A stretch of 61,864 nucleotides of DNA from Ramlibacter sp. (GTDB lineage: Bacteria > Pseudomonadota > Gammaproteobacteria > Burkholderiales > Burkholderiaceae_C). The stretch is taken from NCBI GenBank assembly GCA_028292195.1, contig JAQGMU010000609.1:1-61864 (forward strand). The letters are read 5' to 3'. Positions 13,102 through 36,878 of this stretch are shown piece by piece (position 1 is the stretch's first letter; the number at the start of each line of letters is the position of its first letter). The translations under genes and the position numbers were made by a program. The notes below the pieces were generated by a model that saw only the letters and a list, made by a program, of their open reading frames with translations, was not told the origin of the DNA and searched no databases.

Positions 13102-13114
13102 CATCAAGCATGTG
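13102..13114 (+). promoter_or_regulatory. Repeated operator-like motif, copy 1
   Basis: CATCAAGCATGTG in the divergent Bug/SDR gap. Confidence 0.7.
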
Positions 13115-13182
13115 ATCATTCCCGAGCCCGGTAGCGCGTCGCCTGCCACAGATAACAATTGCGCATGCGCAAGGAGACCAGG

Positions 13183-13917
13183 ATGAAGCTGCAAGGCCGA
13201 CGTATTCTCGTCACCGGTGGTGCCTCCGGCATCGGACGGGCCACCGCGGAAGCCTGCCTGCGCGAAGGCGCGCAGGTGGCGATCATCGACATCGATGCGG
13301 CCGCCATGGAGGGAATGGCCGTGCCGGGGCGTCGCTGGACCTTCCACGGCGACGTGCGTGACGAACAGGGCCTGGCCGCCGCAGTCGCCGCCGCGGCGGC
13401 TGCGATGCACGGCCTGGACGGACTGGTGCACTGCGCCGGCGTCGCCAACGGGACGCCGTTCGAAGAGACCGACTTCGACACCTGGAAAACGCAGATCGAG
13501 ACCAATCTCGGCGGTACCTTCCTGGCCTGCAAGGCCGCGATGCCCTTCCTGCGCCAGGCTGATGCCGCCACCATCGTGAACATCGCCTCGGCGCAAGCGC
13601 TGCTGCCCACCGGCAGCAGCAGCAGCTACACGGCGGCCAAGGGCGGCGTGGTGGCCTTCAGCAAGACGATCGCCATCGAACTGGCGCCGAAGATCCGTGT
13701 CAACGTGGTCTGCCCCGGGACCACCCGCACCCCGATGGTCGACGGCGTGCTGAAGACGCGTCCCGACGCCATCAGCCGCAACCTGGCCTCGGTGCCGATG
13801 GGGCGGATCGCCGAGGCCCCGGAGGTCGCCGACCTCATCGTGTACCTGACCAGCCGGGAATCGTCCTTCGTGACGGGCACGGCGATCGCCGTGGACGGAG
13901 GCCGCACCCGGCACTGA
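13183..13917 (+). CDS. Short-chain dehydrogenase/reductase (paralog A)
   Basis: TGGASGIG, NIASAQ, YTAAK, VNVVCPG, VDGG; SD AAGGAG. Confidence 0.95.
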   Translation: MKLQGRRILVTGGASGIGRATAEACLREGAQVAIIDIDAAAMEGMAVPGRRWTFHGDVRDEQGLAAAVAAAAAAMHGLDGLVHCAGVANGTPFEETDFDTWKTQIETNLGGTFLACKAAMPFLRQADAATIVNIASAQALLPTGSSSSYTAAKGGVVAFSKTIAIELAPKIRVNVVCPGTTRTPMVDGVLKTRPDAISRNLASVPMGRIAEAPEVADLIVYLTSRESSFVTGTAIAVDGGRTRH

Positions 13918-13976
13918 AGCGCGGCCCAGGCTCGGCTGAACTGCCCATATGGTGATGCGCCGGCCGGGTCAGAAAT

Positions 13977-13989
13977 CACATACCTGATG
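13977..13989 (-). promoter_or_regulatory. Repeated operator-like motif, copy 2
   Basis: Reverse complement CATCAGGTATGTG (11/13 match), upstream of Bug 14068. Confidence 0.62.
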
Positions 13990-14067
13990 ACATGCCGGAC
14001 CGAGTTGGTAGTGCGGAGTTGCAATCCTAGAATGGCCGCGCCCACCCGCTGAAATGAAGGAGACGAG

Positions 14068-15033
14068 ATGCGAGGTTTTGCGAACTGGCTCAGGGCCGGG
14101 TTCCTGTTGCTTTCCTGTGCCTTCGCCATCGCTGCCCATGCGGCCTATCCGGAACGGCCGGTCAAGCTGATCGTTCCTTTTGCGCCCGGGGGTGCCGGCG
14201 ATGCACTCGCCAGGCTGATCGCGACGCGCCTTGGCGAGCGCCTCGGCCAGCCCGTGCTGGTGGACAACAAGCCGGGCGCCGGCACCCTGATCGGCGCCGA
14301 GCTGACCGCTCGCTCGCCCCCGGACGGCTACACGCTCATGATGGTTACTTCGTCCGCCGAACTGCTGGCCCTGCGCAAAGGCAACACGGTGGATCTGCGG
14401 CGGGACTTCACGCTGATCTCGCCGGTCGCCGAGTCTTCCTACATCCTTGTCGCCAATCCGAATGCGCCCTTCCGAACCCTGGCTGAAATGGTGGCTTTCG
14501 CCAGGGCCAATCCGGGCAAGGTGACTTATGGGCACCAGGGCACCGGCACGTCGACCCACCTGGTGGGAGAGTTCTTCGCGGATGCCGCCGGCGTGAAGCT
14601 GATGCCGGTTCCATACAAGAGCGCAGCGCCGTCGCACACCGCGGTGATCGGAGGCGAGGTCATGCTGATCGTCGACGGCCTCGGGCCGACCACGCCGTAC
14701 GTCCGCGAAGGGCGGCTGGTCGCACTGGCCACCACAGGCGAGCGCCGCGTGCCCCAGTTGCGGGCGGTGCCGACCGTCGGCGAGACGGTGCAGGCGGTGT
14801 TCCCGAAAGCCTGGTACGGGATCGGGGCGCCAGCCAATACCCCGCCGGACATCGTGCGCCGGCTGCATGCCGAAATCCTTGCCGTGGTTGCGCTGCCCGA
14901 TGTGCGCGAGCGGATGGCCACGATGTCGATCGATCCCCTGACGGCCACGTCCGAAGAGTTCCGACGAATGATCGGAGCGGACATCGAACGCTGGAGCACG
15001 ATCGTGCGCAAGGCCAATATCGACATCGAGTGA
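14068..15033 (+). CDS. Bug/TctC substrate-binding protein
   Basis: AHA signal cleavage site, [42 protein letters not shown]. Confidence 0.95.
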
Positions 15034-34502: not shown

Positions 34503-35054
34503 ATGAGAAGAGTGGTCACGGGACACGACAGCAACGGCAAGGCCGTTGTGCTGAGCGACGGCAATCCGGGCGTGGAGTCGTCCAGCCAGACGCGCAAGGC
34601 GGTGAACGTCTGGTTCACCGATGCGACGCCGGCGCCGCTGGCGGCCGGCCCGGCGGAAACCATCGACCGTCCCTACTCGATCGTTCCGTCGCCCGGGGGT
34701 ACTTCCTTTCGCCTCTTCGAACTGCCGCCCGACGAGCAGGCGATCGGCGGCCGATCGCCTGCCGAAATCAAGGCGGCGTTCAACGCCGCCGGCGGCGGCT
34801 CGTTTTCCACGACCAAGGCGGATTCACCGCACCCCCTGATGCACCGGACCGAAACCATCGATTACGGCATCGTGCTGGAAGGCGAGATCTTCCTGCTCGT
34901 CGACGACGCGGAGGTTCACCTGAAGCAAGGCGACGTGATCGTCCAGCGCGGCACCAACCACGCGTGGAGCAACCGTTCCGGTGCCGTGTGCCGAATGGCC
35001 TTCGTCGTGGTCGACGGCAAGTTCGAGCCGGAACTGGCGAAAGCGCTGGCGTGA
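34503..35054 (+). CDS. Cupin domain protein
   Basis: RRVVTGHD.NGKAV, MHRTETIDYGIVLEGE, GDVIVQRGTNHAWSN; SD AAGGAG. Confidence 0.92.
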   Translation: MRRVVTGHDSNGKAVVLSDGNPGVESSSQTRKAVNVWFTDATPAPLAAGPAETIDRPYSIVPSPGGTSFRLFELPPDEQAIGGRSPAEIKAAFNAAGGGSFSTTKADSPHPLMHRTETIDYGIVLEGEIFLLVDDAEVHLKQGDVIVQRGTNHAWSNRSGAVCRMAFVVVDGKFEPELAKALA

Positions 35055-35079
35055 GCCGGCCCATCCCGAGGAATCCAAC

Positions 35080-36048
35080 ATGACCCTGCGCCGAAACCTG
35101 CTTCGCGCGATTGCCGCCGCAACCGCAATCGGCCTCCTGCCCGCCGCGTGGGCAGCCTACCCGGACAAGCCGATCCGGCTGGTGGTCCCATACGCAGCCG
35201 GGGGCGGCGCGGACGTGCTGGGCCGCTTCCTTGGGCAGAAATTGAGCGAGAGGCTGGGCGTTCCGGTGATCGTCGAGAACAAACCGGGTGCGAGCACGCT
35301 GATCGGCGGCGAGTTCGTCGCCAAGGCGCCGGCCGACGGCTACACCCTCCTGATGGGCACGTCGTCGATGGCGCTGCTGCCCCTGCGCAAGCAGGGCACG
35401 ACGGTCGACATGCGCAAGGACCTGGCGCCGATCTCCGCTTTCGCCGAGACGCCTTATGTGATCCTGGCCAACGTCAACGCGCCCTTCAAGACGCTGCCGG
35501 AGATGGTCGCGTATGCGAAAGCGAATCCCGGGAAACTCAGCTACGGCGTGAACGGCGCCGGCACCTCCACGCACCTCGTGGGGGAATACTTCAACAGCAT
35601 GGCGGGCATCAAGATGACGGCCGTCCCGTACAAGGGCAGCGGACCCCAGACCATCGGCCTGCTGGGGGGCGAGACGCTGGTCTCGGTGGATGGCATCGGC
35701 GCCACCAATCCGCACATCAAGGAAGGCAAGATCAACCTCCTGGCGACCACGGGCAGCGCGCGCAGCAACATCTTTCCGAACGCGCCTACGGTATCCGAGT
35801 CGATCCCCGGCTTCGTCGTGAACGGCTGGTATGGGCTGATGGCGACGCCTGGCACGCCGAAGGAGGCCATCGACAAGTTGCAGGCCGCGGTGGCCGCCAT
35901 CGCGGCGCAACCCGATGTGCGTGAACGCCTGGCGGGCCTTTCCCTCAATGCCGTGAGCACCACGCCCGCGGAGTACAAGCGGCTGATCGAGGCCGACGTG
36001 GACAAGTGGACCAAGGTGGTCCGCGAAGCCAACCTGGTGCTCGAATAG
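35080..36048 (+). CDS. Bug/TctC substrate-binding protein (close paralog of 12046-13014)
   Basis: YPDKPIRLVVPYAAGG, LGQKLSERLGVPVIVENKPGASTL, PYKGSGPQT. Confidence 0.95.
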   Translation: MTLRRNLLRAIAAATAIGLLPAAWAAYPDKPIRLVVPYAAGGGADVLGRFLGQKLSERLGVPVIVENKPGASTLIGGEFVAKAPADGYTLLMGTSSMALLPLRKQGTTVDMRKDLAPISAFAETPYVILANVNAPFKTLPEMVAYAKANPGKLSYGVNGAGTSTHLVGEYFNSMAGIKMTAVPYKGSGPQTIGLLGGETLVSVDGIGATNPHIKEGKINLLATTGSARSNIFPNAPTVSESIPGFVVNGWYGLMATPGTPKEAIDKLQAAVAAIAAQPDVRERLAGLSLNAVSTTPAEYKRLIEADVDKWTKVVREANLVLE

Positions 36049-36060
36049 GCGCCGGATGCC

Positions 36061-36810
36061 TCAGGTGGCGGTGAGGCCGCTGTCCACCGGCAGGATGTGG
36101 CCCGTCACCCGGCGGGACTCGTCCGAGGCGAGATAGAGGGCGGCCAACGCCACGTCGATCGGCTCGGCGGGACCCAGCAGGTTGCGTCCGTCGTTGCCCG
36201 GCTGGCGGTTCTTGCGCAGTTCCATCACCCGCGGTGTCATGGTGGTGGTGGGCGCCAGCGCGTTCACCCGCACCTTCATCGGCGCGAACTCCACGGCCAT
36301 CGACCGGGTGAGCGCGACCAATCCACCCTTGGATGCAGTGTAGGCATCCAGGCGATGCAGTCCCATCAGCGCGACGACCGATGCGGTATTGATCACGGAG
36401 CCGCCGCCGGCCTTCGCGATCTCGGGAATGCCGTGCCGGCAGCAGAGCCACGCGCCGAACAGGTTCAAGCGGATGGCGCGCCAGAATTCCTCCGCGGGCG
36501 CCTCCGTGACGGGGCCGTCGGCGGCGCTGGAGGCGCCGGCATTGTTGTACAGCACGTCGAGCTTTCCGTAGGTGGCAGTCGCCGCCTGGATCGCAGCCTG
36601 CACCGAAGCTTCATCGGTCACGTCGGTCTGGATGAAGACCGCCTGCCCGCCGGCGGAGCGGATCTGGCTTTCAACGGCCCGGCCGTCTTCCGCCTTGAGT
36701 TCGGCCACCACGATGCGCGCACCCTCGCGCGCAAAGAGGCGGGCGGCTTCCGCGCCGATGCCGTTGGCCGCGCCCGTGATCAGGGCCACCTTGCCTTCGA
36801 GTCTGCCCAT
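36061..36810 (-). CDS. Short-chain dehydrogenase/reductase
   Basis: RLEGKVALITGAANGIG, YNNAG, YTASKG; SD GGAGG. Confidence 0.94.
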   Translation of the reverse strand: MGRLEGKVALITGAANGIGAEAARLFAREGARIVVAELKAEDGRAVESQIRSAGGQAVFIQTDVTDEASVQAAIQAATATYGKLDVLYNNAGASSAADGPVTEAPAEEFWRAIRLNLFGAWLCCRHGIPEIAKAGGGSVINTASVVALMGLHRLDAYTASKGGLVALTRSMAVEFAPMKVRVNALAPTTTMTPRVMELRKNRQPGNDGRNLLGPAEPIDVALAALYLASDESRRVTGHILPVDSGLTAT

Positions 36811-36862
36811 GCGTGCCTCCGTGCTGTGAGCTGCGTAGTGTCGGCGCATCCGCGCCCGTTGA

Positions 36863-36878
36863 CGCATCACACTCCTGC
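36863..36878 (-). promoter_or_regulatory. Degenerate copy of the repeated operator-like motif
   Basis: CGCATCACACTCCTGC matches 18955-18970 (CGCATCACACTCTTGC) at 15/16; reverse-complement core CAGGAGTGTG; upstream of SDR 36810. Confidence 0.55.

What the first reader, a model, noticed from the sequence alone, without database searches (positions are those of the whole stretch)
13102..36878. Unannotated operator repeated at least seven times defines a 24-kb regulon
Seen: CATCAAGCATGTG is exact at 13102, 18867 and 25832. Reverse-strand variants occur at 13977 (CATCAGGTATGTG) and 16927 (CATCAAGAATGTG). A related pair at 18955-18970 and 36863-36878 is 15/16 identical to each other (core CA[AG]GAGTGTGAT). 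All are intergenic and upstream of transcription units, and one copy is palindromic (CACAT-N5-ATGTG). I noticed none outside 13-37 kb. Inference: binding sites of the IclR at 36946-37755, the only regulator in the block.
Basis: partly seen in the sequence, partly recalled or inferred. Interest (0 to 1): 0.72.

Follow-up and report, generated by a model that had tools for sequence, protein, structure and literature searches.

The report
Helically phased IclR activator sites
A 16-base DNA motif sits upstream of the operons in a 25-kb block of predicted carboxylic-acid uptake and breakdown genes and recurs beside relatives of the neighbouring IclR regulator in other bacteria, so it is likely that regulator's binding site, predicted from its spacing to switch the genes on: a new example of an ordinary kind of gene control.

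Summary
Confirmed. Motif discovery on homologous loci, window excluded, returns the same motif beside close (75-81%) and distant (41-55%) relatives of the IclR at 36946-37755, so this IclR clade is the likely reader. Three corrections. (1) The dyad is CA-N6-TG (ideal CATCACAT|ATGTGATG), an even-length IclR group-1 site like that predicted for ACIAD1822, not CACAT-N5-ATGTG. (2) The regulon extends beyond the window: contigs C79 and C401 carry six more sites, and C79 a 79%-identical IclR paralogue, so a single knockout may show nothing. (3) Sites lie upstream of the promoters, 37-39, 47-50 or 58-60 nt from -10-like boxes, with roughly 10-bp jumps between orthologues. That is class I activator geometry; at iclR's own promoter in relatives the site is placed to repress. 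A weak eighth site lies at 24725. The genes suggest CoA-dependent breakdown of an unidentified carboxylate. No binding or expression data exist. New member of a known kind.

The parts
13102..13117 (+). Site 1, CATCAAGCATGTGATC, between divergent tctC (13014, -) and SDR (13183, +)
   Evidence: 7th of 5,495,569 genome positions with the distant-homologue matrix; only imperfect -10 boxes, at 36 and 38 nt
13974..13989 (-). Site 2, CATCAGGTATGTGATT, upstream of tctC-snoaL-snoaL-sdr
   Evidence: 2nd in the genome; 38 nt from TAGAAT
14005..14033 (+). Sigma-70-like promoter TTGGTA-17-TAGAAT; its -35 starts 15 nt downstream of site 2
16924..16939 (-). Site 3, CATCAAGAATGTGCTG, upstream of the class III aminotransferase; its -10-like TAGCAT (16972-16977) is 32 nt away, off phase
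18801..18830 (-). Sigma-70-like promoter TTGACG-18-GATAGT of ridA; -10 lies 60 nt from site 4
18867..18882 (+). Site 4, CATCAAGCATGTGTTG, in the ridA / livK divergent region
   Evidence: (top window hit)
18957..18972 (-). Site 5, GAGCAAGAGTGTGATG, 37 nt from TAGATT (19010-19015) upstream of livK
   Evidence: 64th in the genome; CATCAAGAGTGTGAT variant seen beside distant homologues
24725..24740 (+).
   Evidence: 5th window hit with the 22-column matrix, score 10.0; only 3677th in the genome with the distant matrix, so tentative
25832..25847 (+). Site 6, CATCAAGCATGTGCGG, 48 nt from TAGCAT (25896-25901), heading the 10-kb CoA-ligase / ECH / ACAD operon
   Evidence: identical 16-mer upstream of the orthologous module in G020 (L011:15373)
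36865..36880 (-).
   Evidence: (1267th in the genome)
36946..37755 (-). IclR-family regulator, 269 aa, recognition helix LPQSSTSSLL; no site upstream of its own gene
   Evidence: Pfam HTH_IclR + IclR_C; best PDB hit 3D3O, E 3.5e-22; dN/dS 0.16-0.20; upstream best score -4.0
12046..13014 (-). TctC/Bug periplasmic receptor (target of site 1)
13183..13917 (+). SDR dehydrogenase (target of site 1)
14068..16863 (+). tctC, two SnoaL-like genes, SDR (target of site 2)
17031..18392 (+). Class III aminotransferase (target of site 3)
18412..18774 (-). RidA / L-PSP family gene (target of site 4)
19053..24700 (+). Liv-type ABC transporter (binding protein, permease, fused permease-ATPase, ATPase) and cyclase-family gene (target of site 5)
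24822..25808 (+). tctC, 62-65% identical to the receptor heading the orthologous module in G020
25924..26019 (+). 31-codon ORF, likely an internally deleted tctC left behind site 6
   Evidence: SRR-type start and GVKAE end; last 23 nt match 21/23 to the G020 tctC end
26029..36048 (+). Likely single operon: CoA ligase, enoyl-CoA hydratase, PimC/PimD-like ACAD pair, tctC, CoA ligase, ACAD, cupin, tctC (target of site 6)
   Evidence: gaps of 26 nt or less; first four genes 64-86% identical to G020 and Variovorax SRS16 plasmid genes
36061..36810 (-). SDR dehydrogenase (target of site 7)

Best explanation
[quoted passage not shown] Shown by sequence: seven sites plus a weak eighth, upstream of nine likely transcription units (24 genes, 12046-36810); six further sites on C79 and C401; the same motif beside homologues of this IclR; -10-like boxes at 37-39, 47-50 or 58-60 nt from the site edge. 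Inferred: one IclR dimer binds each site, centred near -58.5, -68.5 or -79.5, on the same helix face as RNA polymerase, and recruits it to promoters with weak -35 boxes, probably through the alpha C-terminal domain and probably only with an effector bound. One site often serves both promoters of a divergent pair. In relatives the site lies 2-27 nt from iclR's own -10 and would autorepress; the window's iclR has no such site and would be constitutive. The output is likely uptake (TctC, Liv) and CoA-dependent, beta-oxidation-like breakdown of a branched or alicyclic carboxylate; the compound is not identified. My odds by step: real factor site 0.97; read by this IclR clade 0.9; activation 0.7; both paralogues bind the window sites 0.6.
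For: Separate EM on 56 non-redundant upstream regions of 41-55% homologues gives CATCAC-N4-GTGATG in 40 of 56, including CATCAAGCATGTGAT (L114) and CATCAAGAGTGTGAT (L047 and kin). A matrix from those 40 ranks four window sites 2nd, 7th, 8th and 9th of 5,495,569 genome positions (seeded with the ideal palindrome). CA-N6-TG is the only centre with a positive symmetry score over 34 sites. G020, with one IclR match at E<=1e-30, has the identical 16-mer before the orthologous tctC-ligase module. PMC8222616 Table S1 predicts WWTCACAT-ATGTGAWW for ACIAD1822 and the OB2212 group, which share the PQSST helix; ACIAD1822 is PDB 3D3O, the best structural hit. Phasing: 36 of 39 TAnnnT at offsets 30-65 fall in the three windows, and 0 of 9 sides that face no gene carry one. 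Collapsed to 15 promoter groups, R = 0.74 at 10.5 bp, null P 1.3e-4; control R 0.21, n = 24. Spacing jumps within orthologous promoters: maoC 38-39 or 48, ech 37 or 58-60, ligase module 38 or 48-49. 13 of 35 boxes have TTG exactly 17 nt upstream. CRP class I optima are -61.5, -71.5 and -82.5 (PMC4132738).
Against: No binding, expression or start-site data; the -10 boxes are pattern matches. The phase windows were chosen after seeing the data, the loci are kin, and most of the group-level signal is one peak at 37-39. In the window only 5 of 10 gene-facing sides have a strict TAnnnT: four in phase (37, 38, 48, 49), one off phase (32, site 3). Distant-homologue loci show no phasing (15 TAnnnT scattered over 43 gene-facing sides). 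Sites 5, 7 and 24725 are weak: below 12 with the 22-column matrix, and 64th, 1267th and 3677th with the distant matrix. The PQSST helix is not sufficient: Swit_0315 has it and is predicted to bind TTCG-N6-CGAA. Three C79 sites were in the training set, so their high rank is partly circular. The assembly is 82% complete and 5% contaminated.
Confidence: 0.63

Rival explanations
1. Same protein clade and sites, but the IclR is a repressor released by an effector, as the word 'operator' implies; the sites would block the alpha C-terminal domain or an upstream activator.
For: IclRs act as repressors, activators or both (PMC8222616). At iclR's own promoter in relatives (offsets 2-27) and the oxidoreductase promoter (offset 22) the site overlaps the core promoter. 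Site 3 is off phase. One helix face can also suit interference with polymerase.
Against: At most target promoters the site ends 15, 25 or 36 nt upstream of the -35 position and overlaps neither hexamer; most -35 boxes are poor (no more than 4 of 6 matches); spacing changes in whole turns.
Confidence: 0.2
2. Only one paralogue reads the window's sites: either the C79 IclR controls everything and the window's copy is dispensable, or the two have partly separate regulons.
For: G020 runs the orthologous module with a C79-type IclR alone (89% to C79). The window's iclR has no upstream site and a longer branch (0.25 against 0.10; quick tree). The CATCA left arm is in 5 of 8 window sites but 2 of 26 sites elsewhere.
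Against: The window's iclR is intact and under purifying selection (dN/dS 0.16-0.20). The recognition helices differ by one Ala/Ser. The CAAGCATGTG core also occurs at C79 9928, L013 6006 and L031 4221.
Confidence: 0.1
3. Another regulator reads the motif: a more distant IclR of this genome (C15, C565), or a LysR or TetR.
For: The genome has 30 HTH_IclR matches. The C15 IclR (37%) has ATTTCACATATGTGAAAT upstream, with the same core. A LysR lies on C79 and beside the SRS16 iclR, and a TetR in 7 of 35 clustered loci.
Against: The IclR family is in 27 of those 35 loci at >=45% linkage (they were fetched on it), and the motif sits directly upstream of it in 40 of 56 distant loci. No LysR or TetR was found among the G020 cluster genes annotated (one 240-aa gene had no Pfam hit). 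The C15 site has TTTCA arms, not CATCA.
Confidence: 0.05
4. A global-factor site, a REP-type repeat or chance.
For: TGTGA recalls the CRP half-site (recalled, not tested). Site 6 and the 24725 site may be copies made by a local promoter duplication.
Against: Exact copies only in this block; at most one copy in 117 congeners; 10 of the top 11 matrix hits on C79, C401 and the window; 1 of 500 shuffles; no Rfam match in the window.
Confidence: 0.02

Closest known systems
ACIAD1822 (Acinetobacter ADP1; PDB 3D3O) and OB2212 orthologous groups, IclR motif group 1, even length (Suvorova and Gelfand 2021, PMC8222616, Table S1)
   Same: PQSST recognition helix; 16-bp even dyad with CA-N6-TG and the half-site ATGTGA; several sites in one local cluster; 3D3O is the best PDB hit (E 3.5e-22).
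   Different: Outer arms are CATCA/TGATG rather than WWTCA/TGAWW. Sites in the close clade are asymmetric, one strong half with an AWT extension. No tandem site 15-35 nt away (best 8 of 16), unlike the 19-nt tandems of OB2212. Those motifs are predictions too, and CATGTGAT and CATCACAT occur 0 times in Table S1.
IclR-family activators of aromatic catabolism (MhpR, PcaU, PobR, GenR, PbaR, TphR)
   Same: Local IclR that controls adjacent catabolic and transport operons; activation of targets with repression of its own gene (family behaviour per PMC8222616 and titles in its reference list). The MhpR site near -58 is recalled; I could not find it in the library.
   Different: Different motifs (Table 1 of PMC8222616); only distant sequence similarity (PcaR 8EJU, E 1.7e-10); much larger regulon here, with targets that are acyl-CoA enzymes rather than ring-cleavage oxygenases.
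Class I activation by CRP (PMC4132738)
   Same: Site centres upstream of -35 at whole-turn intervals: -58.5, -68.5, -79.5 here against -61.5, -71.5, -82.5.
   Different: Different protein family and site; phase shifted by about 3 bp; contact with the alpha C-terminal domain is inferred, not shown.
Pim-type and steroid side-chain beta-oxidation modules (PimC/PimD, ChsE pairs, MaoC hydratase, thiolase with ChsH2-like OB fold)
   Same: Paired ACADs (below-cut-off hits to PimC, PimD, IpdE2; PDB 6WY8 and 4X28), CoA ligases, ECH; MaoC, thiolase and OB fold in the linked cluster.
   Different: No enzyme passes a substrate-specific equivalog cut-off; extra aminotransferase, RidA, cyclase, SnoaL and TauD genes; substrate unknown.

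Membership tests
IclR-family regulator | N-terminal HTH_IclR plus C-terminal IclR effector domain, about 250-270 aa | tested here: met
   PF09339 48.4 bits and PF01614 49.3 bits, both over cut-off; 269 aa
IclR group-1 binding site | Palindromic dyad with core YCRY-W3-4-RYGR (even form CA-N6-TG / CR-N6-YG) | tested here: met
   Only centre with a positive symmetry score; the ideal TCAC-ATAT-GTGA fits; real window sites match the ideal at 10-13 of 16 and the central four bases are often not A/T
IclR group-1 binding site | Outer arms of a published subgroup (TGT, GTT, WTT, NGT) | tested here: not met
   Arms are CAT/ATG; nearest rows are the AAT/ATT arms of OB2212 and ACIAD1822
IclR group-1 binding site | Site conserved upstream of orthologous genes and of the regulator gene (phylogenetic footprint) | tested here: met
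   22 of 22 divergent regions in close loci; 40 of 56 distant iclR upstream regions; absent upstream of the window's own iclR
IclR group-1 binding site | Tandem sites 18-22 nt apart (common, not universal) | tested here: not met
   Best second match within 15-35 nt of each of the 8 window sites is 6-8 of 16
IclR group-1 binding site | Direct binding by the IclR protein | not testable with these tools
   Needs EMSA, footprint or DAP-seq
Class I activator site | Centred upstream of -35 at whole-turn intervals | tested here: met
   Close clade: 15 promoter groups, R 0.74, P 1.3e-4; control R 0.21. Window alone: 4 in phase, 1 off, 5 without a strict -10. Not seen in distant loci
Class I activator site | Activation through the alpha C-terminal domain, lost on a half-turn insertion | not testable with these tools
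   Needs a reporter or in vitro transcription
Global-factor site or REP | Many copies across the genome and in congeners | tested here: not met

The most novel reading that the evidence does not exclude
An uncharacterised IclR clade (related to ACIAD1822/3D3O) works as a CRP-like class I activator from single dimer sites at -58.5, -68.5 or -79.5, one site often firing both promoters of a divergent pair, and two redundant paralogues in this genome drive a regulon of more than 40 genes on several contigs that encodes an undescribed CoA-dependent route for an alicyclic, terpenoid or N-containing carboxylate.
Probability: 0.35. Interest if true: 0.55.

Novelty: new member of a known kind. Interest (0 to 1): 0.33.

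Why it matters
It turns a set of generically annotated acyl-CoA genes into one testable regulon with a named regulator, a site matrix and predicted promoters. A site-plus-promoter reporter or a ligand screen on the IclR would name the substrate, and so the function of a cluster shared by Variovorax, Hydrogenophaga and Xenophilus records and, more distantly, alphaproteobacterial ones. The whole-turn spacing changes between orthologous promoters are a clean natural example of face-of-helix constraint for an IclR. The paralogue explains how a simple knockout could fail. None of this changes a textbook view: local IclR regulons with this class of dyad are already predicted in print.

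Tried and rejected
The CACAT-N2-ATGTG register also scores negative. Global site or REP: rejected. Structured RNA: no Rfam match in the window. Contaminant contig: the window's 10-kb tetranucleotide distances lie at the 6th-91st percentile of 162 contigs, so no sign of it, though not excluded. Tandem IclR sites: not found. Single-protein scan of genome contigs found no relative; the alignment query did. A draw of 400 genomes of the family gave no close orthologue (best 37-43%). Generic promoter scan: 2 hits against 1.5 expected, so not above chance, though both flank sites. 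Phasing test in distant loci: no pattern; their -10 boxes may not fit TAnnnT. Substrate assignment by NCBIfam and PDB: nothing specific. Expression: no RNA holder listed. Earlier findings of this scan: none returned. Literature: the motif strings hit 3 unrelated papers; the IclR + acyl-CoA dehydrogenase + MaoC + Variovorax search gave 0; the primary papers on TphR, GenR, PbaR and PcaU are not held, and searches for the MhpR site position gave nothing usable. The IclR tree is the quick one; the careful search did not finish. No structure or complex prediction was run.

Full report
Observation. The three exact copies of CATCAAGCATGTG (13102, 18867, 25832) and the two reverse variants (13977, 16927) are present; at up to 2 mismatches the window has 6 matches against 1.43 expected, the sixth lying inside a gene. 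The pair at 18955 and 36863 is 15/16 identical. In the 5.5-Mb assembly G000 the exact 13-mer occurs three times, the five-site pattern five times and the pair core twice, all in this window. It is the only 13-mer found in three or more of the window's 34 intergenic segments (4,763 nt), and 1 of 500 dinucleotide shuffles gives any such 13-mer. Of 117 congeners, 9 have one exact copy and none has two; 7 of the 9 copies are genic. The repeat is real, local and not a global element.

Anatomy. Gene calls and Pfam/NCBIfam scans give 24 genes in nine likely units from 12046 to 36810: five TctC receptors, four SDRs, two SnoaL-like genes, a class III aminotransferase, RidA, a Liv-type ABC transporter, a cyclase, two CoA ligases, an enoyl-CoA hydratase, three acyl-CoA dehydrogenases (one PimC/PimD-like pair) and a cupin. 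The IclR at 36946-37755 is the only regulator Pfam finds between 12 and 38 kb; LysR (1233), PaaX (57890) and TetR (58814) lie outside. No enzyme passes a substrate-specific cut-off, and PDB searches of three enzymes gave general relatives only.

The regulon is wider than the window. The IclR has a 79% paralogue on contig C79 and a 78% match in G020, the only match at E<=1e-30 in that complete genome. All four divergent intergenic regions of C79 carry the motif. In G020 one 46-kb cluster holds the IclR and about ten sites. Its genes map in G000 to C79, C401, C549, C166 and the window: the tctC-ligase-ECH-ACAD-ACAD module at 24.8-30.8 kb (62-86%) is the only close copy in this assembly. The 16-mer in front of that module in G020 is identical to site 25832. 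A genome scan with a matrix not trained on the window gives 26 hits above 12 bits; 10 of the top 11 are on C79, C401 and the window, the other being genic on C622. Three C79 sites were in the training set, so the independent hits are two on C401, three in the window and C79 9927. Sites 13974, 18957, 36865 and 24725 score below 12 with that matrix. Tetranucleotide distances do not mark the window's contig as foreign, but the assembly is 82% complete and 5% contaminated.

The motif follows the IclR clade. A protein search found 419 relatives at E<=1e-30, about 40 of them at 59-82% identity; their alignment fetched loci from a Variovorax SRS16 plasmid, named genomes and 80 metagenome contigs. A matrix from those 40, seeded with the ideal palindrome, ranks sites 13974, 13102, 16924 and 18867 2nd, 7th, 8th and 9th of 5,495,569 positions; 18957, 25832, 36865 and 24725 rank 64th, 591st, 1267th and 3677th. 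Many of these loci are kin.

Register and family. Suvorova and Gelfand (PMC8222616; I read parts 1-4 of 8 of the text, passages, and parts 53 and 55 plus searches of Table S1) define group 1 as GKTYCRYW3-4RYGRAMC. They predict WWTCACAT-ATGTGAWW for ACIAD1822 and the OB2212 group, which share the PQSST helix of this IclR. ACIAD1822 is PDB 3D3O (figure legend passage of bioRxiv 10.1101/251942; its supplements were not seen), the best PDB hit at E 3.5e-22; one table in PMC4213383 (passage) lists it only as a putative regulator. Against over-reading: Swit_0315 has PQSST and a different predicted core; the CAT arms fit none of the four published subgroups, and CATGTGAT and CATCACAT are absent from Table S1; no tandem second site was found. 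PheR (PMC13273656, passages) needs GCAACG and is unrelated in motif.

Mechanism. On 59 gene-facing sides of the 34 sites, TAnnnT hexamers at offsets 30-65 fall 36 of 39 times at 36-40, 47-50 or 58-60 nt from the site edge; none of 9 sides that face no gene has one. The windows were chosen after seeing the data. Collapsing kin to 15 promoter groups gives R 0.74 at 10.5 bp (null P 1.3e-4); a control anchored on AT-rich 16-mers in other divergent regions gives R 0.21 (n 24). Most of that signal is the 37-39 peak, but orthologous promoters shift by whole turns: maoC 38-39 or 48, ech 37 or 58-60, ligase module 38 or 48-49. Thirteen of 35 boxes have TTG exactly 17 nt upstream and none has more than 4 of 6 matches to TTGACA. 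With the -10 at -12, site centres fall at -58.5, -68.5 and -79.5, upstream of -35 and close to the CRP class I optima -61.5, -71.5 and -82.5 (PMC4132738, passages). Several divergent pairs have a -10 at 37-39 nt on both sides of one site. At iclR's own promoter in five relatives the offset is 2-27 nt, which would repress. I infer an effector-dependent activator that represses its own gene. In the window, 5 of 10 gene-facing sides have a strict hexamer: 37, 38, 48 and 49 in phase, 32 (site 16924) off phase; ridA has TTGACG-18-GATAGT at 60. Distant loci show no phasing. The window's iclR has no upstream site but is intact, with dN/dS 0.16-0.20. Which paralogue reads the window's sites is open: their helices differ by one residue, yet the CATCA left arm is in 5 of 8 window sites and 2 of 26 others. 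More distant IclRs on C15 and C565 have related upstream dyads, among 30 HTH_IclR matches in the genome.

Novelty. I found no paper on this motif variant or cluster (searches; most subscription journals are not in the library), and the scan's earlier findings returned nothing. The kind of system, a local IclR regulon with an even group-1 dyad, is in print as a prediction. What is new here is the member, its arms, its size, the paralogue and the activator geometry. Verdict: real, well supported as an IclR-clade site, probably activating, substrate unknown; interest 0.33.

Noticed in passing
window 25924-26019 (+): A 31-codon ORF with a strong ribosome-binding site looks like a tctC reduced to its first and last codons; the intact tctC just upstream (24822) has a similar promoter region with a decayed site, which suggests a local duplication followed by deletion.
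   Followed up: partly
G000 contig C15, upstream of 7777; contig C565, upstream of about 10380 (-): More distant IclRs (37-38% identity, helix YPxSSTSMLL) have ATTTCACATATGTGAAAT and CATCGCATACGTGAAT upstream: same core, different arms, so cross-talk is possible.
   Followed up: no
window 37756-37766 (-) and orthologous loci L013, L028, L030, L031, C79: iclR appears leaderless: a -10-like TACATT, TAACAT or TACCAT lies 5-8 nt before the ATG, with no evident ribosome-binding site.
   Followed up: no
window 56020-56330: AT-rich divergent region between an alcohol dehydrogenase and an aldehyde dehydrogenase heads a separate 18-kb minus-strand block (CoA transferase, P450, ferredoxin reductase, Liv transporter, TauD, thiolase) with higher GC3; it lacks the motif and lies near PaaX and TetR genes.
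   Followed up: no
window 13165-13917 and 16129-16863: Two SDR genes of the block are both 69-74% identical to one G020 SDR, which suggests a duplication within the block.
   Followed up: no
L011:14636-15358 and G000 contig C401 8969-9727: A 240-250-aa gene of the linked cluster (81% identical between the two genomes) has no Pfam hit at 1e-6 and has a site upstream in both.
   Followed up: no
L028 (Variovorax sp. SRS16 plasmid 3, NZ_LR594668.1 317867-358664): The orthologous cluster lies on a plasmid next to IS6, IS3 and IS1182 transposases; a second Variovorax plasmid carries a 77% IclR too. With its patchy presence in the genus, this suggests the cluster is mobile.
   Followed up: partly
window 10191-10724 (+): A 177-aa ORF with fair codon score and no Pfam or NCBIfam hit, between mgtC and a DUF4148 gene.
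   Followed up: no
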